A stretch of 64,000 nt of DNA from positions 832,001-896,000 of the forward strand of contig CM000434.1 in the NCBI GenBank assembly GCA_000165345.1, given 5' to 3'. A program made the translations under genes and the position numbers. Position 1 is the stretch's first letter, and every line of letters begins with the position of its first letter. Shown piece after piece: positions 21,601 to 43,716 of the stretch. A model generated the notes under the pieces. The model was not told where the DNA came from, did not search any database, and worked only from the letters and a program-made list of their open reading frames with translations.

Positions 21601-24600
21601 ATAGTCATATTCACTAATTAGGAAAAGTATCGTGAATAAGTAAATTAATGAAATAATTTGTATGAAGAAGAATAAGTATTTGATAATAGACTGAAGATTT
21701 GTATTTTTTTGAGAGTTTTTTTGCTTAAAATAATTCATTGGAGCATTCAACAAATTACTCTTTGTAGTTTTAATAGTATTCATAGACTTTTTATCCTTAA
21801 TATTTTCTTTTAAAGAGTTATCCTTATAAATATACCAAGGTGATGTGAAAATTAAAGACAATGCCAACAATACTGAATCAATGACTTTTCCTGATGCAGA
21901 TACTGGGAAAATTTCTGCAAAATCTCTTAATCTAAATACAGAATATGGCAATGTATTTAAAAAAGCTTTTCTCGTATATTTGAGAATATTTTTTGTTAAT
22001 AACTGAATTGATGATTTTGACTTAAAATTTGAATTTTGGCTTTCATTAGTTACACCCGATATTCCTCTTTTTTTTTCTTTTTTATTTTGTCTGATTAACC
22101 CACTTTTTGTTTTTTTATTTGAATTTATTTTCTTTTTAATCTTTTCCTTACTCCAATCGTTTATCATGTTTTTGATATAAAAGACTTTGAGATATGATAT
22201 AATTGCCCAAAGTAATATGTAAATTATAGATGTCAATAGAATTGCAGAAGAAACTCGAATAGCTGATGGAATTATATGATTATGAGGACTTGTATTTAAT
22301 AAAGTAATGAATTTTGCTTTTTTAGCCAATAGTTCTTCAAACGTAGTATATGAACTTGATTTATCACAGATTGGATGTTTATTCATCATTCCATAAAGTT
22401 TACTTCTACTTATTAAGGGACCTAAATCAGTAACATTAGCTTTAGCTGGTATTTCTGGTATGTAACCAAGATGAATTTTTTGATAATCACTATTTAGACT
22501 TGGAATATAACATTCAGTTTTTTCACCAATACATTGAGAATCTATCAGCAATGTACTGGATGGATCAAATTCATGTTCATGATCTTGACTAAAAATCATG
22601 GGTACCCATAAGACCTCTTTTATTTGCATAATATTACAAATGTTTGGTAGCTCTATTAAGCAGTTACCCAAATATGTATTTATTCCCATTTTTTTATCCA
22701 TCTTTTTATATAATGCATCAATTCCAGTTTCATGTGTAGGTGTTGTTTCCATATTATCTTGACCAAAATAGTCAAAGTCGTCCAATATTCCTTGTATCTT
22801 CTCATTTAAATTGTTGCTTTGAGTATTTTCAATAGCATCATTAATATTTAGATTCTCTAATCTGTTTTTAAGAGTATGAAGTCCTTGAATCTTTGAAAAA
22901 TCCACGTTCTTTCCTAAGAAGAGTTCAGCTTCATTATTTCTTGGATAATTACAGGTGGAGTTCTGTAAAATTTTGATAATATGTTCAAAACTACTGGAAC
23001 GTACAAATTTGGTCATTTCTGGAGACAATAATTGTTTTACTAGATTGATAGCTTCTCCTAAAGAATCAGTTTTTCGATATTCTGTTTTAGTCTTTGATAA
23101 ATTAACTAATTCATCATTTTTGTCAGTATAATTTTGGAAAAGTTTAGTCTTTTGAGAAAAAATGGTGTCAAAGTTACTAAAAATAGATTCATATTCTCCG
23201 CTAGTATCGTGTTGAGAAATATGATCATCTTCTTCAAAATAACCTCTTCTCATTTCACTTCTCACAAAATTCATTTGTTCTTCAAGTTCATTCTGCTCGT
23301 CCAGCTCATTCTGTTTTTCCACTTCCTTATTGTTTTCAGTAAAATCAAATTGATACTGCAAAAAGAAATCGCGACTAAATTCTGGATTAGAGTAAATACT
23401 ACCTTCAACGGAACTACTGCTCTTTACTTTCTCATTAAAAGTAGTATTTTCTAGCTTTACTGAAACATTTACATCTCTTCCATTTGAATCAGAAGCTGTC
23501 AAACTTTCATTAATATACTGGAAGATTTTATTGTGTTCAATACTATTAATTTTAGCCAAATTATCTAGCTCAGTCTCATCTGAATCAGTCTCTGAATTAG
23601 AATCAATTTCACGAATTTCTCCTTCAATACCATTCGAAAGAATAATAATTCTAACCAAAAGTGTAACGGGAATAGCCATCAAATCATCTAAATTTGGAAA
23701 TTCTGGAGGTAATGAACCCAATAATCTGGAAGCAACTTGGATACTCACTTCTGATGAGTAATCAAGACTTGAAAGTACTTCTGATAGTGTCTGGACTCTT
23801 CCTAAAAGAATATTTCGAATAATATCATCCTTTCCTAAAATTGTTGCAGTAATAAGAGCATGCTGTAATGCATGAATACACCAAAAGCTTTGTAACATTG
23901 CCTCCCTTAATATTGACTGTAATACCACTTTTGACGTATAATTTTTATTTAATAAAAGTAGTAATGATAAGATCGAAATTGAATTATCATACTCTGAAGT
24001 ACCTATAATAGGTATCGATCGTGGTGTAGGAATTGAGTACCTTTTTAAAGGCTTACAAAAACATCTCACGACAAATGAACTGACGTGGAAGTCTATGGCT
24101 GGTGATGAGAGATATTCAACAATTTTATGTTCACCTGTAATATCGTTTCCTGAGCTAACCGCAAGTTCGTACCAAAGAGTTGTATTGGTTTTTGGATTTT
24201 GAAACATAAGCATTTCCTCGAGAATTTGGAACTTAGGCAACTTATTGTTATTGTTTCCAGAAAATTTGAACTCATTAATTTGATCAAACTCTTCAAACAT
24301 TTTAAAAGATTTTTTACTGCTAATAGTTGGTTTATATAAAAGTGAATTTTCTTTATTAAGTTCTCTGCTCTCTTTTAACATCAATTCCTCCTGATAATTG
24401 ATTTTGTAAATAAGGTGGCCAATAGGAAGGTTCCCATATATATCAGGTTCATGAAGTTCGCAAAGTTCAAAATCCAATACCCCAGTATTAGTCTGAAACT
24501 TGTAGAAACTAACCAAAATCCTAATCAGATCTTCATCTCCAAGATGAGCCATCCACCAAAGCAAGTTCCGGCCTTCATTATCCCTAACAATGCATATATC

Positions 24601-25593
24601 CTTGTTATATGCCTTGATTTCTGGGAGTAATAGAGAAAAGATGACTTTTTTATCAAATCCTCTTTTAATTGCAGTAATAATACGAAGAATTTTATCCTTT
24701 GCATTGGCCAACTTTCTGTTAATTTCGGAAAGAGTTGAATTTAAAGGTAACTTTTCATTACTGGAAATATACTCGTTATCAATATTATTCCTCACAATAT
24801 ACTTGGAAAAGGAGGAATGTTCAATTAATTTATTTAATAACTTTTTGTTTCCTGACTCAATAATAAACGAAATCGCATCTTTTCCTTCAAGGGTTAAATC
24901 AGTCATAGATGCTCCGTAGTCCAAAAGCAACTCCAAGAATTCCTCGGTATTTGTTGACATTCCGTCTTTTAATAAGAAATAAAATGGGGTTAGCCCATTT
25001 CTGTCTGGAATATTTGGGTTTGATCCACATTTTAACAGAAAATGAGTCATCCTCAAATTCTTTGAGATTACACTGTAAAATAATGGAGACAAATCCCTAT
25101 TATCTGAGTAATCAATATTGGCTCCGTTAAGTAATAATAATGCCACTAATGGTAAGTTGCTTCTTTGAACAGCATTAATCAATGGACTGATTCCATTCGC
25201 ACCAACTATGTTTACATCTGCTCCATGTTCTATCAAATATAACGAGATAGTATAGGAAATATATCCATTTTGTCTAGTTGAAATGAGTAAGGCAGTTTCT
25301 CCTGTTGAATTAGAAATTGAATTAATATTATTAACGCATAACCTATCAAGCATAGCAGTGATTGCCTCAAGATCCTGTAGCCTAATACTTTCATGGAATT
25401 CATCCACTAAATCAAGACATTCTTCTGTGTAAGCAATATCTTTTTGGCATTCACAGTTATTTTTCTGGATTACATTTACCAATGAATCTGAAATACTGTT
25501 TAATGGGCAACCAATAGGAAATATTTGTTTGGTTCCTATGCAAAACAATATCTTAAACGTTAAAAGAAAAATTGAACATAGATAAATCTTCAT
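18601..25593 (-). CDS. Giant (2330 aa) ankyrin-repeat multi-pass membrane protein, function unknown
   Basis: It is a single uninterrupted ORF starting at an ATG with a signal-like N-terminus, MKIYLCSIFLLTFKILFCIG. N-terminal ANK repeats are present (ETALLISTRQNGY..HGADVNIVGANGISPLINAVQRSNLPLVALLLLNGANIDYSDNRDLSPLFYSV..NGLTPFYFLL). It has long Asn/Ser low-complexity tracts and at least 8 hydrophobic helices in the C-terminal two-thirds. Confidence 0.65.
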   Translation of the reverse strand: MKIYLCSIFLLTFKILFCIGTKQIFPIGCPLNSISDSLVNVIQKNNCECQKDIAYTEECLDLVDEFHESIRLQDLEAITAMLDRLCVNNINSISNSTGETALLISTRQNGYISYTISLYLIEHGADVNIVGANGISPLINAVQRSNLPLVALLLLNGANIDYSDNRDLSPLFYSVISKNLRMTHFLLKCGSNPNIPDRNGLTPFYFLLKDGMSTNTEEFLELLLDYGASMTDLTLEGKDAISFIIESGNKKLLNKLIEHSSFSKYIVRNNIDNEYISSNEKLPLNSTLSEINRKLANAKDKILRIITAIKRGFDKKVIFSLLLPEIKAYNKDICIVRDNEGRNLLWWMAHLGDEDLIRILVSFYKFQTNTGVLDFELCELHEPDIYGNLPIGHLIYKINYQEELMLKESRELNKENSLLYKPTISSKKSFKMFEEFDQINEFKFSGNNNNKLPKFQILEEMLMFQNPKTNTTLWYELAVSSGNDITGEHKIVEYLSSPAIDFHVSSFVVRCFCKPLKRYSIPTPRSIPIIGTSEYDNSISILSLLLLLNKNYTSKVVLQSILREAMLQSFWCIHALQHALITATILGKDDIIRNILLGRVQTLSEVLSSLDYSSEVSIQVASRLLGSLPPEFPNLDDLMAIPVTLLVRIIILSNGIEGEIREIDSNSETDSDETELDNLAKINSIEHNKIFQYINESLTASDSNGRDVNVSVKLENTTFNEKVKSSSSVEGSIYSNPEFSRDFFLQYQFDFTENNKEVEKQNELDEQNELEEQMNFVRSEMRRGYFEEDDHISQHDTSGEYESIFSNFDTIFSQKTKLFQNYTDKNDELVNLSKTKTEYRKTDSLGEAINLVKQLLSPEMTKFVRSSSFEHIIKILQNSTCNYPRNNEAELFLGKNVDFSKIQGLHTLKNRLENLNINDAIENTQSNNLNEKIQGILDDFDYFGQDNMETTPTHETGIDALYKKMDKKMGINTYLGNCLIELPNICNIMQIKEVLWVPMIFSQDHEHEFDPSSTLLIDSQCIGEKTECYIPSLNSDYQKIHLGYIPEIPAKANVTDLGPLISRSKLYGMMNKHPICDKSSSYTTFEELLAKKAKFITLLNTSPHNHIIPSAIRVSSAILLTSIIYILLWAIISYLKVFYIKNMINDWSKEKIKKKINSNKKTKSGLIRQNKKEKKRGISGVTNESQNSNFKSKSSIQLLTKNILKYTRKAFLNTLPYSVFRLRDFAEIFPVSASGKVIDSVLLALSLIFTSPWYIYKDNSLKENIKDKKSMNTIKTTKSNLLNAPMNYFKQKNSQKNTNLQSIIKYLFFFIQIISLIYLFTILFLISEYDYIWFLIGVIITATLCSSVRIYYTHEFVSNYCNKYFCGFSKEYYLYNYYYYKKSVENRKNIRNIYSNLLNCAMNSSTLIKNNYFSHNNNNEYDYDFDCDKSDIDKNSNNKINSEVPILDNQIEISPNMLIPQKLSSQKLSSRNKSHMDLIPELHAQVHHRFGGSFISELNNSQSGSSFSTSNYYINTKASHSYSNEVNGCSVTSQPDSSSNFSSPNTARFNLLGVSSSNVTTFGSRSYSRFTSYSSSSSKYFENNNFADDENLSSSESNEDTNSLGSDLESITKKNDDDKYINRIKLNPNHSKVNKVKVMKKSSVKVKKSSTGGEYICLPDLLSITSTISNDTSSGDKYLRTPWIQNYNSKIESNDINIAFDINSSKSSSFGLVNDKFCSTLSGPAIRITRSNTANKRFKSVLSNYCNRIKNTQQIYQSDTNISSKTSIYINSKRQKKIPSINDNFNNFIKSNNQVKRSIRLRKIRNIISSAEDNLSCDNIRTNIGNVVTNNQIHKPLYRLVDEVSYNTPYEYFNVVITCKIISCIVAMSSNISITLFKSNSYLIRDSTLYFLYNKSPITVYIIECIFTYWISNLIFEILKGLIILLFFVKQRKRLCIVLVQHIPTQFKYSNVQEFIQIVSYWRSAIQHILYKNTKLWTSFLNASVSINTLIFFCIGKIMLVAIYNKKNRIYNNRVSDLSSSTMLSKNPSSNQNLNGLSASGSTNIVRGSFDKDISRILTTSPNIIGGGISTNLLNELNSRSIGDHFMNNFFKTGSFSTNKNQFMDSISNIDYILNSNNEDNYNMNKYNDISSMIDLNDHYYTNIPGEGTNNFINNINLMRSIRSGMNNNDNNPVISHSTLTYSNLASISNIKTSALSFMLTIPQYATSYLSYQGTIPSSSENNMINTYSNCETIFLTMGIVMFIFSSYVIRLLYQINRTSVRTHSWLQNILHRTPPGAGIYIVIEKVLLVINSTPPLLKICGFDITEKLSGFCLYIFTPLAILTFFKFTT

Positions 25594-36906: not shown

Positions 36907-39900
36907 ATGTTTACAGGGAGTGACTTGAAAAACTTAGTATTGAAAACTCTATTATTATTGCTACTGGAATACCTTATCATCAACTTTCCAGGAGTCTCAT
37001 CAATTGATGAAAAGGTTCAGGAAAGGAAAGATGATCCAGTAGCACATATGGACCCTGCCCCACCAATACTATTTAAGGAAATGAAAAGTCCAATTGTAGG
37101 AGTGGGTGATATTTGTTTTGGAAACAACTGTAACTATTACCAAGAAAGTAAAGAAAATAGTCCATCCAAAGACAGAGAAAGCTATCATTCAGTTGGTTCC
37201 AAAGTTACAAGGTATATATGTATATTATTATCAGAAAATACTTTTACTAGGGAAAAAGAGGCAGATTTGTTTTTTGAAAGATTAAATGAATATACAGAAA
37301 CTTCAGAATTGCCATTTTCATATGTTGAATTTTACGAGAAACTTGGAGTTTTTGTAATTGATGTTAGATCCAGTATTAAAGAGTATGAAGAACGCAGTAT
37401 ATTTCCCTTGGCTGAAGGTTTGAAACTTATCAAAAAGTTAGATATTTTAAACAAGGCTGACTGTACTAAAGATTCTCTTTTAAGTGAACAATCGGTATTT
37501 ACAAGTGGAAATGAAGATAAATCTACTGAGAATTACAGTAATAGCTATAAGTGGAATTGGAGCAGTATTCCTAATAATTTTGTAAATTTTAATCGAATCT
37601 TGAAATCCGAAGAGTCTCAAGGAAATATTACGAATAACAATCAAGGCACAGAATATTTAACAGATGAAGCAAAGCTATACAAAGAGTTGGATGGTTACTT
37701 TTTGAAAAAGTTCAATGAAGCATCTAATCTACTTAATAAACTAAATATGTTCTCTTCCCCATCCTCTTCATCATCAAATTTCAATAATCCTACTGTTTCA
37801 TCAACATCATTTTCCGGAGGGAGGCAATCTTCTCTTTGGAATGCACTCAACTTTTTATCCAGTTTCTCAAATAAGGAAGAAAAGTCTAGATCTACGCCAA
37901 TCCAGGAAATTGAAGATCCAATTTTTGGAAAAATGGACCCAACAGATGGTAATTCTAAATTAACAATATCTCCACTATACCTTCTTGGGATGAATCTCAA
38001 AGGAAAAAACATTACAGAGCTATCTCAAAAGTTCAAAAATCAAACATCTCCTATCGTTCCTGTAGATATGTCTAGAGAAGATATTAGCTTGGACAATGAT
38101 CTTGCAATGAATATAGCAACAGTAATCTTCAAAGGAATGAGTGATTCCGCTGCAAAGCTTCCACCTCCTTTTGGGAACCCTGCAGTCAAAAATGAGCAAA
38201 AGTTTCCAGAATATAATTACAAAAACCATATAAATTATCTTGAAACAAATGCAAATAATAACTATTATAATTCCCCATCAATCTCTAACTGGAGTTATAA
38301 ACCCATACCACAGGGTAACAATAATGTAATTGGTGGATATGAAAATGACCAAAGCCAACTCAATATTCAAAGTGATCACTTTAAAGGAGGAAGTTTTCAT
38401 CCAAGTTCAAGTAATAATGCTATCAATACAATTGATAATTCCATTATTGGATTTAATAGTGTTTCTCAAGTTAACTCAAATAGTAATTCTAATAAAGTAG
38501 GAGTTCATTCTCAATCTGGTTCTGGCTTAGCTCCAAATATTTTTGAATCAATAGATACATGGGGAAAACAGAGCTCAGCTTATCAATCAACTTCTTCTTC
38601 CGCCTCCCCTCCATCATATTATGCAACAAATGGTATTAAAACTATTAATCCAAATCAAGTGACTTCTAATGGAAAGAGTAATCCTGATTTAAAAGTACCA
38701 ACCATTAATTCTCCATCAACTTCAGAATGGATGAGAAAGACTATTTCAAAGCAAAATGAGGGTGGGATAAAGCAACCGTCATTTATTAACAGTCAAAATA
38801 ATCAAACAGAAATTAATAAATTTGCAAATAATATGAACCAAAATACCCCCCCAATTGTTAATTCAAATGGTAATCACTTTAATTCTCCATTTTCACAGCT
38901 TTCAAAGTTTTCTAACAATCCATTCCATGGAAATTCTGCCGGAACAACATTTGTCAAAATGAATGGTAGTGTTTTTGATGATGATAATGATATCACTTCT
39001 TTCCATCCTGAAGGATTTATCAATAAACTTCCAGAACATGTACAAAAGAATATGACTCAATCTCAAAGAGACAAAATTAACTTAATAAATGCATTTATTG
39101 GTACTGGATTTGATACAATTCTTCAGATGAATAATATAGATTCTAGTTCAAGTTATGGTAATCAGAATAATGATTTCTTTAGAAGTTCTCCTCCAAAAAG
39201 AAGATTATTTGAGATTGACTCTTCAACAAGAGGAAACAAAATGGTGATTGATGAAAACATGAAAGACCCGAATTTAAGTGATCAATCAAATAAAGAATAT
39301 GAAATGTATGCCAAATTGCTGAGTAATATTGATACGAACCAAGGTCAAGATACTGCAATGGCCTATGTGACAGGATGTGATTGTGATAGATTTCCTGAAG
39401 GAGTTGCATGTCCCATGGTGCTTTCAGGAGAAGCGAATATTGAATGTATTGGGTATAAAGTTTGGAATAGTGCAAGAAAAGGTGCTCCATTGAGTGAGAT
39501 AGCTTCAGCAATAGATTCTGCAATTACTTCTAAAGCAAGAAATATTATTTTGCCTTTAAAGTTTGATACAAAGACAATTGAAGAAAATCGAGCAGCTCCA
39601 AGAATTTTGAGGCACATCATGAGAAGAACTTCAAGAGAGAATGGAATACTATTTGCCTTACCAACAGGAAATAATGGTAAGCAGGAGTTGGATGGAAGCT
39701 TAGACTTTCCTTGCGACGATTTGACAGGAATGTACGCTTTTTGTGTGGGTTCAATTAACAACAAAAATGGAATGCCTTCGAGTTTTTCCAATGTTCCTCA
39801 GTTAAATAATGCAATCTATGCTAATGGTGAGGATGTTGAATCAATTGGAATAAATCAACAAAGACGATTATTTTCTGGTACCGGTATTGCTTTAGCTCAA

Positions 39901-42900
39901 TCAATTGGTGCTTTAAATATTATTCAAGGTATTACAAAGGATAAAACGAGCTCATTTGACCAGCTTGCTATCCTGTACAGTGCCCCTAAAAAACTTCCAT
40001 CAAGGAATTTTTTGGAGCAGCTTTTTGCAAACTCGAGTCCGATTACATTCAAGCCTCAACAGCAACAACAACAATTCCAGAAACAAAGCTCTAGGAACGA
40101 GACAGGTTCTTCAGATCCTGTTTTAATGTTTGGTATGGGATCTGGAAACAATACAAATGGTGCTTTAGGATCAGTATCTCATGAAAGGATCATGAATTCG
40201 AGTCTAATGAGTGGAAATAGAGACAATGATTTAGATGCAATAATGGCCAGGATTGAGAGCATTGAAAAAAGTCTTGCAAAGTCAGGTTTAGATGGTGGCA
40301 CCGTTTTCAAGGGAGAATTTCCAGTTGGTGGTCCATTTTCTTCACCTTCTGATTCCTCTACTTTCTCATCCTCTTCCACTACCACAACTACTACAACCAC
40401 CAGTCCAGTCAGCACTACAACTTCCAATGCTTCTACTCTAACCAATATAACCACAGAAATTCCTCAAATATTAAATTATACAAACATAAGTAGTTCCAGT
40501 ACATCCACTCCTTCTATTAGTCTCAACACTTCTACCCCTAACATCGTAACAACTCTTCCCTCTAACATCACAACAAACCCTCCTTCCAGCATCACGACAA
40601 ACCCTCCTTCCAGTATCAAAACAAACCCTCCTTCCAGCATCGTAACGACACCTTCCTCCAACATCGCAACAAATACTCCTTCCAATATCACTACTACCAC
40701 CACCACCAGTCCTTCCAGAACTCCCAGAGCCTCTAATCCTCCTCTTACGGAAAACAAAGAAGAAGAATATGGTCACTATAAGGAATCTAACTATAGTCCA
40801 GAAATAATAGGAGTTGTTCTAGATCCAAAGGAAGTAACTGAAGTCTCCAGATTAGTTCATTCCAGTAATGAACATTATAATGAGTACTATGATAGATATG
40901 GAAATCATGATACTGTTGATCACGAATATGAAAATGACGATGGGTACCGACAATACTATATTGATGGAAATGAAGACAAGAATCACAACTACGGCAATAC
41001 ATTTAATTCAGAGGAAAATATGTCAAGAAATCTTTGTTATGAAGAGGAAACCAGGTTTTACAGTCCCTTAGAAATGGCTATACCCGTAGATAATATTGAG
41101 CAGTGTATATTATCCTGTAGTAATACCCCAGACTGTAGATACTATTCGTATGGAGCATTCCTTAAAGGCCCTGGAAGCATTATTGGGACATGTATATTAA
41201 TGCCTGATAAACAAGGATCGGTAGCTTTACCAAACTTCCAATCTGGAGCTCTAGGATGCCCAGTTTCTGCTAGTATTGCTTATGCTCAGGCTATGGAAGA
41301 AAGACTAATACAAGGTATTAGTAATGCAAATGAAAATAGTCAAAAAAGTTCTTCTGCTCAAGTTAATAACAATTTAAACTCGGATTGGCCAGGCATACTT
41401 TCCACCTCTACTGTAGCAGTTAAAAGTATGAGTGGATTCTTATCTAGATTTCCTCTCAACGATATACTTCAAACAAGTATTTCCTTATATAATTCAGGAT
41501 TTCTCGATCAAAAAGGTGCTTTAAGACCAAGTGGAGCTTTTGAAAAGCAAAGTATATTACCCCCTCCTGGAGTTGGATCTCCACATGTAGTATGTACCCT
41601 ACAAGGTATGCAATGTTGTGTCCCACAGAAATCTGCTAAAGGATGGAGAAAAAAGCCACCAAGTTTTCTTAGAGTTGAAGATCCTTCATGCGAAGCTATT
41701 TATGTCTCAAAAACAGATATGTTCTGTGCAACCACATCATTATATGATAACCAGGATATCTCTTCATCAGGATATAATTCACTTGATGATTTTAGAAGCC
41801 AACCCTCATTTTCATCAAATTCTTATAGTACTAATCCAAAACCTTCAGGAAGCTGTGGAATGGTTATAATTGAAACAAGTGAGCATCTTATTTTTCAAAA
41901 CACTCTAAAAATGCCTTCTAAAGAGATGAATAATGCATTATGTGAATGTAAGCTGAATAAAAGAGATAAAAGCATACATGGATCTGGTACTTGGGAATAC
42001 TCAGTACAAGCAGTACAAGCTGCAATGAGTCGCAAAGTTGAAGGAGATCAACTTTCTTCTGGAGTTGCTCAAGCTTTAGCTTGGGTAGAAGCAGTTGGGA
42101 ATGATCCAAATCCAGCAGTGAATGGACTTGGTGAGCTTATTTCCCAAGTTGCTCAAAGACCAAATTCAGATGTTGAGTTAATTACTCAGATACCTGCAAT
42201 TAGTCAAAATGCTGTTTCTAATATGCTTTACAATCAACAACAACAACAGATTGAAGAGCAAGAACAAATTATTAAGAAACAACAATCTATTCAGCAATAC
42301 AATAATATGAGATATTTATTATCTCAAAATGAAACTGATACTAATAACGCTAACACTCAAAGTCAATCAGATCAATGTGTAACAAGTTGGCCAGAAAAAT
42401 GTCAAATTTGGAAATCTAAATGTGAGGATAACTTAATATATGGTTATAAAAATCCTCAATGCGTACCATTGACTATTTTAGAGAATGGATGTCCAATGAA
42501 ACAGGTTGGATTCAAGGTGAATCAAATAAATCCAGGAATTTTGAGCTTCAGTTTTAAACCTATGAGATTTTCAGATAATTCACCATTCAGAATTGCTTGT
42601 CAGTTTTCACTCATCAAATGTACTCTAGCAAATATTAAAAGCAAATGTAAATCAAATGGTACTAATAACTTTAAGAAACCAAAGAATTTGAACGGAGACG
42701 ATGAAAACAATGCAATTAATAACATTAGAAAACATTTAAATAATCATAAAAATCAAAATAATAATAAAAATAACAACTTATTTCACAGAAAAGACACTAA
42801 TGATAAAAGTAAAAATAATGAACTAAAACATTTATTCAAAATTCCAATGAACTATCTTCCGTATATTCCAAAAGATACAGGAGAAAGTGACGAGAAATCT

Positions 42901-43716
42901 GAGAATATTGTAGCAAAGTATATTAGAGTCCATTTTCCTCAAGCAGGAAACTTTTCAAATATGACAATGGTAAAACTATTAAACAAAGAGACTAAGAGAG
43001 AATTTGCAGCAAAAATGATTAATGAGGAGGAAATACCAAAAAACAATACTATTGAGGATGTATTAATTGACGAGAATTCAAATTTTGAGTATCTTGGTAA
43101 GGTAGAGATAGTTACTCAAGATGAAAATGATGAGGACTACTCAACTATTAAATATGAAAATACATCAATTATTTCTGATAGAATGGGAGTTGATATTGAA
43201 AATAAGGATGTTATTTTCAGTCATCTTATAAAGTCAAGCAACGAAAGTAAAATATACAAAGAACCTTTGCTTTTAGATAAATATCAACCAGATTTTACAG
43301 GTGAATCATTTCCTGAATTCAAGATGGAGAAAGTTGTAATTCCTAATGAAAAAAGTACTGAAAATGAAATATCTCAGAGTTTTAATAAAGATTACAACTC
43401 TGAATCAAAATTAGGAACAAACGAAAAAAAAGAAAATTGGAATAATCACCAAAATGAAAATGGAGATTTGGATGAATATGAAGACTTATACTACTATGGA
43501 TTTGAAAATGATTATGGAAGCAATCATAGCAAGAATCAAATTAGTGACTTTATTCCTTTCATTTCAACCAATAACAAGAAAAACAAATGGGAAGTTCAAA
43601 TAAACAAATCTTCTGGAGATAATAGAAATATACAATATAAAATAACCAAAAAGAATATTCTTTTATTTATATTTGCTTGTTATACTCCTATAATTCTCAT
43701 GTTTGGTTTTATTTAA
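36907..43716 (+). CDS. Giant secreted mucin-like glycoprotein (about 2270 aa) with Thr/Pro tandem repeats, a PAN/apple-like Cys domain and a C-terminal hydrophobic (GPI-signal or TM) tail
   Basis: It is an uninterrupted ORF. The real ATG is at 36907 (the track starts at a TTG), followed by a signal peptide, LVLKTLLLLLLEYLIINFPGVSS. A poly-Thr run, TTTTTTTTSPVSTTTS, is followed by eight or more TTNPPSSI-type repeats. A Cys-patterned block, CYEEETRFYSPLEMAIPVDNIEQCILSCSNTPDCRYYSYGAFL..GTCILM, fits a PAN/apple fold. There are many N-glycosylation sequons. The terminus, ILLFIFACYTPIILMFGFI, is hydrophobic. Confidence 0.65.
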   Translation: MFTGSDLKNLVLKTLLLLLLEYLIINFPGVSSIDEKVQERKDDPVAHMDPAPPILFKEMKSPIVGVGDICFGNNCNYYQESKENSPSKDRESYHSVGSKVTRYICILLSENTFTREKEADLFFERLNEYTETSELPFSYVEFYEKLGVFVIDVRSSIKEYEERSIFPLAEGLKLIKKLDILNKADCTKDSLLSEQSVFTSGNEDKSTENYSNSYKWNWSSIPNNFVNFNRILKSEESQGNITNNNQGTEYLTDEAKLYKELDGYFLKKFNEASNLLNKLNMFSSPSSSSSNFNNPTVSSTSFSGGRQSSLWNALNFLSSFSNKEEKSRSTPIQEIEDPIFGKMDPTDGNSKLTISPLYLLGMNLKGKNITELSQKFKNQTSPIVPVDMSREDISLDNDLAMNIATVIFKGMSDSAAKLPPPFGNPAVKNEQKFPEYNYKNHINYLETNANNNYYNSPSISNWSYKPIPQGNNNVIGGYENDQSQLNIQSDHFKGGSFHPSSSNNAINTIDNSIIGFNSVSQVNSNSNSNKVGVHSQSGSGLAPNIFESIDTWGKQSSAYQSTSSSASPPSYYATNGIKTINPNQVTSNGKSNPDLKVPTINSPSTSEWMRKTISKQNEGGIKQPSFINSQNNQTEINKFANNMNQNTPPIVNSNGNHFNSPFSQLSKFSNNPFHGNSAGTTFVKMNGSVFDDDNDITSFHPEGFINKLPEHVQKNMTQSQRDKINLINAFIGTGFDTILQMNNIDSSSSYGNQNNDFFRSSPPKRRLFEIDSSTRGNKMVIDENMKDPNLSDQSNKEYEMYAKLLSNIDTNQGQDTAMAYVTGCDCDRFPEGVACPMVLSGEANIECIGYKVWNSARKGAPLSEIASAIDSAITSKARNIILPLKFDTKTIEENRAAPRILRHIMRRTSRENGILFALPTGNNGKQELDGSLDFPCDDLTGMYAFCVGSINNKNGMPSSFSNVPQLNNAIYANGEDVESIGINQQRRLFSGTGIALAQSIGALNIIQGITKDKTSSFDQLAILYSAPKKLPSRNFLEQLFANSSPITFKPQQQQQQFQKQSSRNETGSSDPVLMFGMGSGNNTNGALGSVSHERIMNSSLMSGNRDNDLDAIMARIESIEKSLAKSGLDGGTVFKGEFPVGGPFSSPSDSSTFSSSSTTTTTTTTSPVSTTTSNASTLTNITTEIPQILNYTNISSSSTSTPSISLNTSTPNIVTTLPSNITTNPPSSITTNPPSSIKTNPPSSIVTTPSSNIATNTPSNITTTTTTSPSRTPRASNPPLTENKEEEYGHYKESNYSPEIIGVVLDPKEVTEVSRLVHSSNEHYNEYYDRYGNHDTVDHEYENDDGYRQYYIDGNEDKNHNYGNTFNSEENMSRNLCYEEETRFYSPLEMAIPVDNIEQCILSCSNTPDCRYYSYGAFLKGPGSIIGTCILMPDKQGSVALPNFQSGALGCPVSASIAYAQAMEERLIQGISNANENSQKSSSAQVNNNLNSDWPGILSTSTVAVKSMSGFLSRFPLNDILQTSISLYNSGFLDQKGALRPSGAFEKQSILPPPGVGSPHVVCTLQGMQCCVPQKSAKGWRKKPPSFLRVEDPSCEAIYVSKTDMFCATTSLYDNQDISSSGYNSLDDFRSQPSFSSNSYSTNPKPSGSCGMVIIETSEHLIFQNTLKMPSKEMNNALCECKLNKRDKSIHGSGTWEYSVQAVQAAMSRKVEGDQLSSGVAQALAWVEAVGNDPNPAVNGLGELISQVAQRPNSDVELITQIPAISQNAVSNMLYNQQQQQIEEQEQIIKKQQSIQQYNNMRYLLSQNETDTNNANTQSQSDQCVTSWPEKCQIWKSKCEDNLIYGYKNPQCVPLTILENGCPMKQVGFKVNQINPGILSFSFKPMRFSDNSPFRIACQFSLIKCTLANIKSKCKSNGTNNFKKPKNLNGDDENNAINNIRKHLNNHKNQNNNKNNNLFHRKDTNDKSKNNELKHLFKIPMNYLPYIPKDTGESDEKSENIVAKYIRVHFPQAGNFSNMTMVKLLNKETKREFAAKMINEEEIPKNNTIEDVLIDENSNFEYLGKVEIVTQDENDEDYSTIKYENTSIISDRMGVDIENKDVIFSHLIKSSNESKIYKEPLLLDKYQPDFTGESFPEFKMEKVVIPNEKSTENEISQSFNKDYNSESKLGTNEKKENWNNHQNENGDLDEYEDLYYYGFENDYGSNHSKNQISDFIPFISTNNKKNKWEVQINKSSGDNRNIQYKITKKNILLFIFACYTPIILMFGFI
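40549..40700. repeat. Imperfect 24-nt tandem repeat (ACAAACCCTCCTTCCAGCATCACG)n, about 6 units, encoding TNPPSSI(T/V/K)T mucin repeats
   Basis: The repeat is read directly from the DNA, and the units diverge at third codon positions. An adjacent ACC/ACA/ACT Thr-codon run lies at 40375..40400. Confidence 0.8.

What the first reader, a model, noticed from the sequence alone, without database searches (positions are those of the whole stretch)
36907..43716. Giant GPI/TM-tailed mucin-like glycoprotein with PAN/apple-like domain and DNA-level tandem repeats
The 2270-aa secreted protein has poly-Thr and TTNPPSSI repeats encoded by an imperfect 24-nt tandem array (40549..40700). Such arrays are prone to slippage and are classic sources of strain-level length polymorphism. 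Mucin repeat genes are used for subtyping in this parasite group. The Cys-patterned PAN/apple-like module (41020-41200) suggests a host-adhesion function. Antisense ORFs in the track (40179..40776) are artefacts of the repeat.
Basis: partly seen in the sequence, partly recalled or inferred. Interest (0 to 1): 0.55.

Follow-up and report, generated by a model that had tools for sequence, protein, structure and literature searches.

The report
Dead-protease, apple-domain parasite surface protein
This is the already annotated Cryptosporidium parvum gene cgd6_3730: a giant, probably lipid-anchored surface protein whose conserved core is a catalytically dead subtilisin-like domain, one apple domain and cysteine-rich modules, and whose short sugar-bearing repeat is only a fast-evolving spacer.

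Summary
Window 36907..43716 (+) is one 2269-aa ORF, identical to C. parvum Iowa II cgd6_3730. It carries an imperfect 24-nt repeat (8-aa units, 40501-40692), a six-Cys apple/PAN domain (41035-41259), a signal peptide and a hydrophobic tail that ends at the C-terminus.

The label "giant mucin" is misleading. The Ser/Thr/Pro-rich stretch is about 130 aa (6% of the protein). It is the least conserved part (dN/dS 0.6-0.8).

- Two Cys-rich modules follow the apple domain.
- These parts are under strong purifying selection (dN/dS 0-0.17).
- They occur in the same order in gregarines, Rhytidocystis, Cardiosporidium and the chromerid Vitrella.

The repeat number differs by whole units between species: C. 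parvum has two more than C. hominis and C. tyzzeri, and three more than C. meleagridis. It does not differ among the three C. parvum alleles available.

My best reading is a non-enzymatic, GPI-type anchored binding or scaffold protein of the sporozoite pellicle. A published antiserum stains the pellicle. A sub-threshold ZP-C-like signal in the last Cys module is the only potentially surprising lead.

The parts
36907..43716 (+). Single-exon coding sequence of cgd6_3730 (2269 aa plus stop).
   Evidence: ORF. Identical to EAK89986.1/Q5CWU1. The published antigen peptide sits at aa 564-574.
36907..37002 (+). N-terminal signal-peptide-like region (aa 1-32; hydrophobic core LLLLLLEYLIINF, then PGVSS).
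   Evidence: Kyte-Doolittle window above 1.6 at aa 7-33. Public names say 'signal peptide'. The cleavage site was not predicted with a dedicated tool.
37003..39303 (+). N-terminal about 770 aa. It has no Pfam domain and is Asn/Ser-rich with a few conserved blocks. It is detectably conserved only within Cryptosporidium.
   Evidence: Conservation profile. Pfam gives nothing. A local HMM hits only C. muris and one short block in Rhytidocystis. dN/dS 0.08-0.24.
39322..40011 (+). Pseudo-subtilase domain (aa 806-1035): peptidase S8 fold without a catalytic triad. Gly993 (39883-39885) takes the place of Ser221. Asn922 takes the place of the oxyanion Asn155. The only His in aa 790-1050 is H903, in the helix that aligns to BPN' 133-144.
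40342..40731 (+). Ser/Thr/Pro-rich mucin-like spacer (aa 1146-1275; 67% S+T+P, 71 Ser/Thr) with Thr runs. It is the least conserved segment.
   Evidence: Composition. Conservation 0.10-0.18 identity to distant Cryptosporidium species. dN/dS 0.62-0.84 between species; 7 nonsynonymous to 1 synonymous differences within C. parvum.
40501..40692 (+). Imperfect 24-nt (8-aa) tandem array of eight units in register. Three are near-identical (TNPPSSIT / TNPPSSIK / TNPPSSIV).
   Evidence: Tandem Repeats Finder. In-frame units. Whole-unit differences between species at the DNA level.
41035..41259 (+). Apple/PAN domain (aa 1377-1451), Cys spacing C-x22-C-x3-C-x5-C-x18-C-x21-C.
   Evidence: Pfam PAN_1 19.8 bits, E 7e-4, just under the cut-off of 21.4. 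Homologues at the same position pass it: 35.7, 25.8, 25.0 and 23.9 bits. All six Cys are invariant in the family. The profile hits FXI, kallikrein, TgMIC4, EtMIC5 and SML-2 apple domains. There are no nonsynonymous changes in three species pairs.
41404..42276 (+). Conserved 8-Cys domain of unknown fold plus the following conserved segment (aa 1500-1790). Motifs: PPPGVG-x-P-x-V-x-C, GM-x-CCVP, CATT, MNNA[IL]CEC, WEYS. Parts are 100% identical across Cryptosporidium species.
   Evidence: Conservation. Family alignment A4 has 8 invariant Cys. No sequence match in PDB and no Pfam family; only a faint ZP-N hit. It is the most widely shared part of the family, including Neospora and Besnoitia.
42373..42651 (+). 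C-terminal Cys-rich module (aa 1823-1915). Its last about 60 residues resemble the C-terminal half of a ZP-C subdomain (…C-x-P-x3-ILENGCP…SFSFKPMRF…FRIACQFSLIKC…).
   Evidence: Six of 8 family segments hit Pfam PF00100 below threshold, best E 4.2e-4, C. parvum 18.1 bits against a cut-off of 24.6. The only PDB hit of the focused profile is uromodulin, E 0.06, in the same register. None of 10 shuffles with Cys positions fixed hits ZP-C. The assignment is unproven.
42652..43656 (+). Lys/Asn/Glu-rich membrane-proximal tail. It contains conserved motifs (…YIRVHFPQAG…, F-x-Y-LGKVEIV, EPLLLDKYQP) that recur colinearly in gregarine, Rhytidocystis and Vitrella homologues.
   Evidence: Tail comparison. 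Weak HMM support with a restricted search space. Within Cryptosporidium, identity to distant species is 0.5-0.66 in the conserved blocks at aa 2001-2080.
43657..43713 (+). C-terminal hydrophobic segment (aa 2251-2269, ILLFIFACYTPIILMFGFI) that ends the protein. It looks like a GPI-attachment signal, with small residues (KSSGDN) 13-16 aa upstream.
   Evidence: Hydropathy. The same terminal hydrophobic tail occurs in all Cryptosporidium orthologues and in Rhytidocystis, Cardiosporidium and Ancora. No GPI predictor was available.

Best explanation
The locus is C. parvum cgd6_3730, a single-exon gene for a 2269-aa secretory protein. It belongs to an old, previously undescribed family of Apicomplexa and chromerids.

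What is shown. From N- to C-terminus the protein has:
- a signal peptide;
- a long genus-specific N-terminal region;
- a subtilisin-fold domain that has lost its catalytic machinery (Gly in place of the nucleophile Ser, and no His available);
- a short Ser/Thr/Pro-rich spacer, partly encoded by a slippage-prone 24-nt repeat;
- one apple/PAN domain;
- two conserved Cys-rich modules;
- a C-terminal hydrophobic tail with no cytoplasmic residues.
The folded modules are under strong purifying selection. The spacer evolves almost neutrally in sequence and in unit number.

What is inferred. The protein is attached to the outer face of the parasite plasma membrane, probably through a GPI anchor. It acts without catalysis, as a binding or scaffold molecule. 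The apple domain would bind a carbohydrate or protein ligand, as apple domains do in TgMIC4, EtMIC5 and SML-2. The dead subtilase would act as a ligand-binding surface, as in PCSK9 or C. difficile CspC. The O-glycosylated spacer would be an extended, protease-resistant hinge between the pseudo-subtilase and the rest. Its length can change without harm. That tolerance would explain why repeat units are gained and lost between species.
For: Identity: the window protein is 100% EAK89986.1, and the cgd6_3730 antigen peptide matches at aa 564-574.

Loss of catalysis: 'SGTGIA' aligns to 'NGTSMA' of BPN'. The only His in aa 790-1050 is H903. No family member has Asp or His at the motif positions, although two keep 'GTS'.

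The domain is still functional: dN/dS 0.03-0.05, and 79-90% identity to C. canis, C. xiaoi and C. ryanae.

Apple domain.

Old family with the same domain order: Selenidium, Ancora, Polyplicarium, Rhytidocystis, Cardiosporidium and Vitrella. Neospora and Besnoitia share the 8-Cys domain only.

Spacer: 6% of the length, least conserved, dN/dS 0.62-0.84, whole-unit indels between species.

Anchor: a terminal hydrophobic tail is conserved across the family.

Localisation: a peptide antiserum stains the sporozoite pellicle with some granules, stronger anteriorly, and was judged non-micronemal.
Against: - No biochemical test of proteolytic activity exists. The Asp32 and His64 equivalents were assigned by motif position and by absence of His, not from a residue-level structural superposition.
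- The GPI anchor is inferred from tail topology only. The spacer between the candidate omega site and the hydrophobic tail (12-13 aa) is longer than usual.
- O-glycosylation is not shown.
- The localisation rests on one unpurified antiserum against an 11-aa peptide, with no knockout control.
- Array data show low antibody reactivity in infected infants to in-vitro-translated fragments. That is not what one expects of a dominant exposed antigen. Unglycosylated fragments may, however, lack the relevant epitopes.
- No ligand is known.
Confidence: 0.6

Rival explanations
1. One reading: the protein is essentially a mucin-type adhesin, like gp900, gp40/15 or the mucins. Its O-glycosylated repeat would be the functional, host-facing and strain-variable part, useful for subtyping.
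For: The S/T/P-rich stretch has Thr runs and a 24-nt repeat. Repeat number differs between species by whole units. Within C. parvum, 8 of 10 amino-acid differences between two isolates fall in aa 1071-1284. In aa 1120-1290 there are 7 nonsynonymous and 1 synonymous difference, which is compatible with diversifying pressure.
Against: - The stretch is about 130 of 2269 aa.
- In C. canis, C. xiaoi and C. ryanae it is replaced by unrelated low-complexity sequence.
- Three distinct C. parvum alleles have the same unit number.
- The repeat lies between two folded domains, not at an exposed end.
- No paper in the library uses the locus for typing.
- Counts within C. parvum are too small for a selection test.
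Confidence: 0.15
2. It is an active subtilisin-like serine protease, as the UniRef name 'subtilisin' and the 'Peptidase S8/S53 domain' annotation imply. It would be tethered to the surface and process parasite or host proteins, like SUB1 or SUB2.
Against: - Gly replaces the nucleophile Ser in all Cryptosporidium orthologues.
- No His exists in the segment where His64 must lie.
- The Asp32 motif reads V-T-G instead of D-T/S-G.
- Pfam Peptidase_S8 does not match at E<1.
- The whole family lacks the triad.
Confidence: 0.04
3. It is a ZP-like extracellular matrix protein. The conserved C-terminal half would be a diverged zona-pellucida module. It would be released from its anchor and polymerise into a surface coat or contribute to the oocyst or sporozoite matrix, with PAN and the mucin spacer acting as in LET-653, NompA or uromodulin.
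For: - ZP-C (PF00100) is the only Pfam family hit repeatedly by the last Cys module: 6 of 8 members, best E 4.2e-4, always profile positions about 70-132.
- One member also hits cuticlin CUT_C.
- Uromodulin is the only PDB hit of the focused profile, in the same register, at E 0.06, which is not significant on its own.
- None of 10 Cys-fixed shuffles hits ZP-C.
- There are faint ZP-N hits upstream, in the right order.
- The context fits: PAN plus a PTS-rich linker plus a C-terminal anchor, as described for LET-653.
Against: - All scores are below Pfam's cut-off (18 bits against 24.6).
- Only the C-terminal half of ZP-C is matched, and there is too little sequence upstream for the first half.
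- In the wider profile A6 the top PDB hit was Flo11.
- ZP-N support is one hit at E 0.0018, and the Cys spacing does not fit.
- I did not recognise a furin-type site next to the module by eye; no systematic search was made.
- No structure prediction could be run on this region.
Confidence: 0.2
4. It is a micronemal adhesin discharged at invasion, as it was originally predicted in silico.
For: It has an apple domain related to those of the micronemal proteins TgMIC4, EtMIC5 and SML-2. It was chosen as a microneme candidate by in silico criteria, and staining is stronger in the anterior half with some granules.
Against: The authors scored it as pellicular and non-micronemal. It has no cytoplasmic tail and no transmembrane helix of the kind rhomboids cleave. 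It has a terminal GPI-type tail instead.
Confidence: 0.08

Closest known systems
Apicomplexan apple/PAN-domain proteins (T. gondii MIC4, E. tenella MIC5, Sarcocystis SML-2) and the vertebrate factor XI / plasma kallikrein apple domains
   Same: Six-Cys apple domain with C-x3-C-x5-C spacing. The family profile matches these solved domains at E 4e-21 to 5.5e-10. In the parasite proteins the domain is a lectin or protein-binding unit (established knowledge).
   Different: There is only one apple domain here, and it is embedded in a 2269-aa protein with other modules. Staining is pellicular rather than micronemal. The ligand is unknown. The C. parvum copy scores just under Pfam's cut-off.
Subtilase-fold proteins that act by binding, not catalysis: C. 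difficile pseudoproteases CspC and CspA, and PCSK9
   Different: These are unrelated lineages and contexts. PCSK9 keeps an active triad for self-cleavage. No prodomain was identified here. No ligand is known.
Active apicomplexan subtilases (CpSUB1 cgd6_4840, Plasmodium SUB1)
   Same: Peptidase S8 fold. P. vivax and P. falciparum SUB1 are among the best structural matches. T. gondii SUB1 is GPI-anchored (my knowledge, not tested here).
   Different: The Asp-His-Ser triad is absent here. Pfam Peptidase_S8 does not match.
Cryptosporidium mucin-like glycoproteins (gp900, gp40/15 = gp60, the mucin cluster)
   Same: A Ser/Thr-rich, presumably O-glycosylated stretch encoded by a repeat that changes in unit number. 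It has a signal peptide and a GPI-type tail like gp60 (my knowledge for gp60; for this gene).
   Different: The mucin part is 6% of the protein and lies between folded domains. No length variation was seen within C. parvum. It is not used as a typing locus in the searchable literature.
PAN + mucin-linker + ZP-domain matrix proteins (C. elegans LET-653; uromodulin as a GPI-anchored ZP protein)
   Same: The order is PAN, then a Pro/Thr/Ser-rich linker, then a Cys-rich C-terminal module, then a C-terminal anchor. The ZP-C signal is sub-threshold but recurrent.
   Different: Membership is not established: scores are below cut-off, only half of ZP-C is matched, and no clear ZP-N or furin site was found. 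There are extra domains (pseudo-subtilase, 8-Cys domain). ZP modules are regarded as a metazoan feature (my knowledge).

Membership tests
Peptidase S8 (subtilase) family | Subtilisin alpha/beta fold | tested here: met
Peptidase S8 (subtilase) family | Significant sequence similarity to subtilases | tested here: met
   The 12-sequence family profile hits 134 PDB subtilases, best E 5.5e-8. The Cryptosporidium-only profile gives E 0.004. Pfam PF00082 itself gives no hit at E<1.
Peptidase S8 (subtilase) family | Catalytic triad Asp32-His64-Ser221 (BPN' numbering) | tested here: not met
   The Ser221 position is Gly993. The only His in aa 790-1050 is H903, which aligns to BPN' 133-144. The Asp32 motif reads VTG rather than D[TS]G (manual alignment). 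It is therefore a non-peptidase homologue.
Peptidase S8 (subtilase) family | Oxyanion-hole Asn155 | tested here: met
   'TGNNG' aligns to 'AGNEG', giving Asn922. This position is Asp in most gregarine homologues.
PAN/apple domain | Six conserved Cys with apple spacing (C…C-x3-C-x5-C…C…C) | tested here: met
   Cys 1377, 1400, 1404, 1410, 1429 and 1451. All six are invariant in nine family members.
PAN/apple domain | Pfam PAN_1 at or above the gathering score | tested here: inconclusive
   C. parvum scores 19.8 bits against 21.4. Homologues at the equivalent position pass: 35.7, 25.8, 25.0 and 23.9 bits.
PAN/apple domain | Profile similarity to solved apple domains | tested here: met
   FXI E 4.2e-21, kallikrein 2.4e-20, TgMIC4 6.1e-13, EtMIC5 2.7e-10, SML-2 5.5e-10, plasminogen 6e-4.
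Mucin-type glycoprotein | Ser/Thr/Pro-rich tandem-repeat region | tested here: met
   aa 1146-1275 is 67% S+T+P, with eight 8-aa units.
Mucin-type glycoprotein | The mucin domain makes up the bulk of the protein | tested here: not met
   About 130 of 2269 aa. It is not conserved in C. canis, C. xiaoi or C. ryanae.
Mucin-type glycoprotein | Dense O-glycosylation | not testable with these tools
   No predictor and no experimental data were available.
GPI-anchored protein | Signal peptide plus a C-terminal hydrophobic segment that ends the protein with no cytoplasmic tail | tested here: met
   Hydropathy. The tail is conserved in the family.
GPI-anchored protein | Omega site of small residues 8-12 aa before the hydrophobic segment | tested here: inconclusive
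   Ser-Ser-Gly-Asp-Asn (2235-2239) lies 12-16 aa upstream, which is a longer spacer than usual. The equivalent positions in other species are also small residues. No predictor was run.
GPI-anchored protein | Lipid anchor shown experimentally | not testable with these tools
   Tomazic et al. 2018 list a predicted GPI-anchored 'CpSUB2'. The paper is not held, so I could not confirm that it is this gene.
Zona pellucida (ZP) module | ZP-C subdomain recognised by profile | tested here: inconclusive
   Six of 8 segments hit PF00100 below cut-off: best E 4.2e-4, 18.1 bits for C. parvum against 24.6, profile positions about 70-132 of 133 only. Uromodulin E 0.06. None of 10 Cys-fixed shuffles hits. With longer flanks only the Selenidium segment still hits.
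Zona pellucida (ZP) module | ZP-N subdomain upstream | tested here: inconclusive
   PF23344 matches 2 of 16 members at E 0.063-0.13 and one shorter segment at E 0.0018. The Cys spacing does not fit. There is no PDB support.
Zona pellucida (ZP) module | Consensus furin site and external hydrophobic patch between ZP-C and the anchor; polymerisation | not tested
   I only inspected the tail by eye and recognised no clear R-x-K/R-R site. Polymerisation needs an experiment.
VNTR typing locus | Unit number varies among isolates of one species | tested here: not met
   Three distinct C. parvum alleles (Iowa II, KAL5368252, ERR14760746) have the same array. C. hominis assemblies differ only by one-residue indels. 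The sample is very small.

The most novel reading that the evidence does not exclude
The conserved C-terminal half (aa about 1500-1915) is a highly diverged zona-pellucida-type module. Under this reading, cgd6_3730 and its relatives in gregarines, marosporids, nephromycids, coccidia and the chromerid Vitrella are GPI-anchored PAN-mucin-ZP-like matrix proteins. They would be shed and polymerise into a coat on the zoite or oocyst. This would place a ZP-like module, coupled to a dead subtilase, outside animals.
Probability: 0.2. Interest if true: 0.75.

Novelty: new member of a known kind. Interest (0 to 1): 0.36.

Why it matters
As submitted, the finding is an ordinary, already annotated gene. 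Its signal peptide, apple domain, S8/S53 domain and hydrophobic tail are all in the public names. The repeat behaves like any coding minisatellite.

Three things are worth keeping.
- The database name 'subtilisin' is misleading, because the domain cannot be a serine protease. This matters for protease inventories and drug-target lists of Cryptosporidium.
- The pseudo-subtilase, apple domain and Cys-rich modules form a strongly constrained cassette. It predates the split of Apicomplexa and chromerids and has no described function. It is therefore a reasonable candidate for a conserved surface or matrix function of zoites.
- If the ZP-C-like signal is real, it would change the view that ZP modules are restricted to animals.

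For typing, the locus separates species by length. On present data it does not separate C. parvum isolates.

Tried and rejected
- AlphaFold2 on the six-sequence Cryptosporidium-only alignment of aa 780-1060 gave pLDDT 33 and was unusable. This cost one of the two prediction jobs, so neither the PAN module nor the ZP-C-like module could be modelled.
- The search for homologous proteins returned nothing for the alignment queries A1 and A4, not even the known orthologues. The exhaustive representative search supplied the distant homologues instead.
- hhalign of A1 against a single BPN' sequence was uninformative.
- The afdb50 fold library was not available.
- The sigma-70 promoter and terminator scan is meaningless for this eukaryote.
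- Profiles of the 8-Cys domain (A4, A8) found no solved relative. The only hits were insignificant matches to glucosidase II beta.
- The Flo11 hit of profile A6 (E 0.019) disappeared with the focused profile A7 and was treated as chance.
- Literature look-ups for the Neospora, Besnoitia, C. muris and Cardiosporidium locus tags found nothing.
- The paper that may name this gene CpSUB2 is not held.
- I considered a classical type I transmembrane protein and rejected it, because no residue follows the hydrophobic segment.
- I considered an active protease and rejected it on the missing Ser and His.
Full report
**1. What is at the coordinates**

The window is AT-rich (about 30% G+C). On the + strand it holds one uninterrupted ORF. 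The first ATG is at 36907 and the stop codon ends at 43716, giving 2269 aa.

The translation is identical, residue for residue, to EAK89986.1 / Q5CWU1 of Cryptosporidium parvum Iowa II. The same sequence is deposited for three later C. parvum assemblies. [quoted passage not shown]

The peptide SSASPPSYYAT lies at aa 564-574. This matches the antigen published for cgd6_3730, a 2269-aa protein. The neighbouring ORFs encode GAPDH, hexokinase, a P5C-reductase fragment, a myotubularin-like phosphatase, an alpha-amylase-family (glucan-metabolism) protein and ankyrin proteins. This is an ordinary housekeeping neighbourhood on chromosome 6.

**2. The observation**

Tandem Repeats Finder reports a 24-nt array at 40566-40691 (5.2 copies, 79% matches, score 145). 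It also reports an overlapping 48-nt reading. Read in frame, eight 8-aa units run from 40501 to 40692: TSTPSISL, NTSTPNIV, TTLPSNIT, TNPPSSIT, TNPPSSIK, TNPPSSIV, TTPSSNIA, TNTPSNIT. Thr runs flank them.

The Ser/Thr/Pro-rich zone is aa 1146-1275, with 67% S+T+P. The hydrophobic signal region is aa 7-33. A 19-aa hydrophobic stretch ends the protein. Six Cys at aa 1377-1451 have the apple spacing.

The antisense ORFs are real as open frames (for example 40471..40776). They sit on a sense strand that is only 6% G in this zone, so a compositional origin is reasonable.

**3. The repeat and polymorphism**

I aligned the orthologous proteins and then the orthologous DNA from four other assemblies. 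C. parvum carries exactly two more 24-nt units than C. hominis and C. tyzzeri. It carries three more than C. meleagridis. All these differences are in register with the repeat. C. tyzzeri and C. hominis share the short form, so the extra units are most simply a C. parvum-lineage gain.

Within species the picture is different. Three distinct C. parvum alleles (Iowa II, KAL5368252 and a Logan assembly of run ERR14760746) have the same array. They differ only by substitutions, and 8 of the 10 fall in aa 1071-1284. C. hominis assemblies differ by single-residue indels in or near the Thr runs.

It is met for the few C. parvum sequences available. The sample is far too small to close the question.

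**4. Where the constraint lies**

Identity to C. canis, C. xiaoi and C. ryanae is 10-18% in the mucin-like zone. It is 79-90% in aa 800-1040 and up to 100% in parts of aa 1400-1760.

Nei-Gojobori estimates against C. hominis, C. tyzzeri and C. meleagridis:

| Region | dN/dS |
|---|---|
| aa 800-1045 (subtilase-like) | 0.03-0.05 |
| Apple domain | 0 (no nonsynonymous change) |
| aa 1456-1925 | 0.08-0.17 |
| Mucin-like zone | 0.62-0.84 |

The protein is therefore not 'a mucin'. It is a multidomain protein with a nearly unconstrained spacer.

**5. The subtilase-like domain is a pseudo-enzyme**

Pfam does not detect Peptidase_S8. A profile of Cryptosporidium orthologues hits a Bacillus intracellular subtilase at E 0.004. 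A profile that includes the distant homologues hits 134 solved subtilases, best E 5.5e-8.

In the HMM alignment to BPN', 'TGNNG' lies on 'AGNEG', so the oxyanion Asn is retained as Asn922. 'SGTGIA' lies on 'NGTSMA', so the nucleophile Ser221 is Gly993. The only His between aa 790 and 1050 is H903, in the helix that aligns to BPN' 133-144. Nothing can therefore stand in for His64. By motif position the D-[TS]-G of Asp32 reads V-T-G. This last step is my manual alignment.

No family member has the triad. Selenidium serpulae and Vitrella still read 'GTS', which fits descent from an active enzyme. The very low dN/dS shows that the dead domain is still needed.

**6. The apple domain**

Pfam PAN_1 scores 19.8 bits, against a cut-off of 21.4. 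Homologues at the equivalent position pass the cut-off with 35.7, 25.8, 25.0 and 23.9 bits. The six Cys are invariant in nine family members.

The family profile hits:
- factor XI apple domains (E 4e-21);
- plasma kallikrein (E 2.4e-20);
- T. gondii MIC4 (E 6e-13);
- E. tenella MIC5 (E 2.7e-10);
- Sarcocystis SML-2 (E 5.5e-10);
- plasminogen and HGF.

The assignment is secure at the sequence level.

**7. An old family**

An exhaustive HMMER search of 1.84 billion representatives, using aa 800-1930, found 38 proteins. Their sources are:
- gregarines (Selenidium pygospionis, S. serpulae, Ancora sagittata, Polyplicarium);
- Rhytidocystis;
- Cardiosporidium;
- the coccidia Neospora and Besnoitia;
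- the chromerid Vitrella;
- other Cryptosporidium species.

The order pseudo-subtilase, apple, 8-Cys domain, conserved segment, second Cys module is kept in gregarines, Rhytidocystis and Cardiosporidium. Vitrella keeps the same order, but its apple domain is not detected by Pfam or the A2 profile and was aligned by hand. In the coccidia only the 8-Cys domain is recognised, at the C-terminus of 1900-2200-aa proteins.

The 8-Cys domain has 8 invariant Cys and the motifs PPPG-x-G-x-P-x-V-x-C, GM-x-CCVP, CATT, MNNA[IL]CEC and WEYS. It has no Pfam family and no solved relative.

A C-terminal hydrophobic stretch that ends the protein recurs in Cryptosporidium, Rhytidocystis, Cardiosporidium and Ancora. 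This is the topology of a GPI signal, not of a type I membrane protein. Two reviews cite Tomazic et al. 2018 for a predicted GPI-anchored C. parvum antigen called CpSUB2. It may be this gene, but the paper is not held.

**8. The ZP-C-like lead**

The last Cys module (aa 1823-1915) reads …QC-VPLTILENGCP…ILSFSFKPMRF…FRIACQFSLIKC…. This resembles the end of a ZP-C subdomain.

Evidence for the resemblance:
- Scanned as 67-aa segments, 6 of 8 family members hit Pfam PF00100 (ZP-C) as their only recurrent family. The best E is 4.2e-4. The C. parvum segment scores 18.1 bits against a cut-off of 24.6. The match always covers profile positions about 70-132 of 133. One member also touches cuticlin CUT_C.
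- The only solved protein matched by the focused profile is uromodulin (E 0.06), in the same register.
- Ten shuffles that keep the Cys in place give no ZP-C hit.

Evidence against it:
- Every score is below threshold.
- With longer flanks only the Selenidium segment still hits.
- Only half of ZP-C is covered.
- ZP-N support upstream is faint.
- I recognised no furin-type site by eye.

The architectural parallel is with PAN + Pro/Thr/Ser linker + ZP proteins such as LET-653. I treat this as an unproven lead with a probability of about 0.2.

**9. What is known experimentally**

One paper names the gene. It was picked in silico as a microneme candidate. An antiserum to aa 564-574 stained the sporozoite pellicle with some granules, more strongly in the anterior half, and the authors set the protein aside as non-micronemal.

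On a protein microarray probed with infant sera, cgd6_3730 fragments gave low median signals (0.03, 0.007 and -0.07). The top antigens gave about 0.4-0.5.

**10. Interpretation**

The shown facts are the gene identity, the domain order, the loss of the catalytic Ser and His, the apple domain, the selection pattern, the between-species unit changes and the age of the family.

The inferred part is the function. I read the protein as a GPI-type anchored, non-catalytic binding or scaffold protein of the zoite surface. The apple domain and the dead subtilase would be its interaction surfaces. The O-glycosylated repeat would be a length-tolerant hinge.

The rival readings are less likely, for the reasons given in their entries:
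- a mucin adhesin with a functional repeat;
- an active protease;
- a micronemal adhesin;
- a ZP-like polymer.

**11. Verdict**

As submitted, the finding is a correct description of an already annotated gene, with one over-reading ('mucin') and one important omission (the pseudo-subtilase and the conserved C-terminal cassette). It is a new, uncharacterised member of known kinds: apple-domain surface proteins and non-peptidase subtilase homologues. Interest is modest. It would rise only if the ZP-like reading or a conserved surface function is confirmed.

Noticed in passing
window 39322-40011; public names: UniRef labels this protein and its orthologues 'subtilisin', although the nucleophile Ser and the catalytic His are absent. 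This looks like rule-based over-annotation that could inflate protease counts for Cryptosporidium.
   Followed up: yes
C. muris RN66 proteins P0018 (CMU_016980, 1164 aa) and P0017 (CMU_016990, 753 aa): The C. muris orthologue is split into two adjacent gene models, and the break falls inside the apple domain. P0018 ends in '…CILACSNTLNVDFTHMVHF' and P0017 starts 'MPDKQGSV…'. C. serpentis has one 1943-aa protein in the same 90% cluster. This is probably a frameshift or a gene-model error.
   Followed up: partly
window 40120-40760 (aa 1071-1284): Between C. parvum Iowa II and the isolate assembled from run ERR14760746, 8 of 10 amino-acid differences fall in this 9% of the protein. In aa 1120-1290 there are 7 nonsynonymous and 1 synonymous change. 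This hints at diversifying pressure on the spacer, but the counts are too small to test.
   Followed up: partly
window 42904-43356 (aa about 2000-2150): The tail between the last Cys module and the hydrophobic end has conserved motifs: YIRVHFPQAG, F-x-Y-LGKVEIV and EPLLLDKYQP. They recur in the same order in Selenidium, Rhytidocystis, Ancora, another gregarine transcriptome and Vitrella. This suggests one more family domain that my A2 profile did not cover.
   Followed up: partly
CAD98415.1 (P0012, 2335 aa) versus window 36907-43716: The older chromosome 6 gene model lacks 13 aa near residue 101 and has 79 extra residues at the C-terminus compared with the 2269-aa ORF in the window. The current model fits the uninterrupted ORF and its stop codon at 43714-43716.
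   Followed up: no
window 18601-25593 (-): A second giant ORF (2330 aa) with N-terminal ankyrin repeats and no other Pfam domain.
   Followed up: no
tool behaviour: the search for homologous proteins returned no hit at all for two alignment queries, even though close orthologues exist in that collection. Negative results from that tool with alignment input should not be trusted.
   Followed up: no
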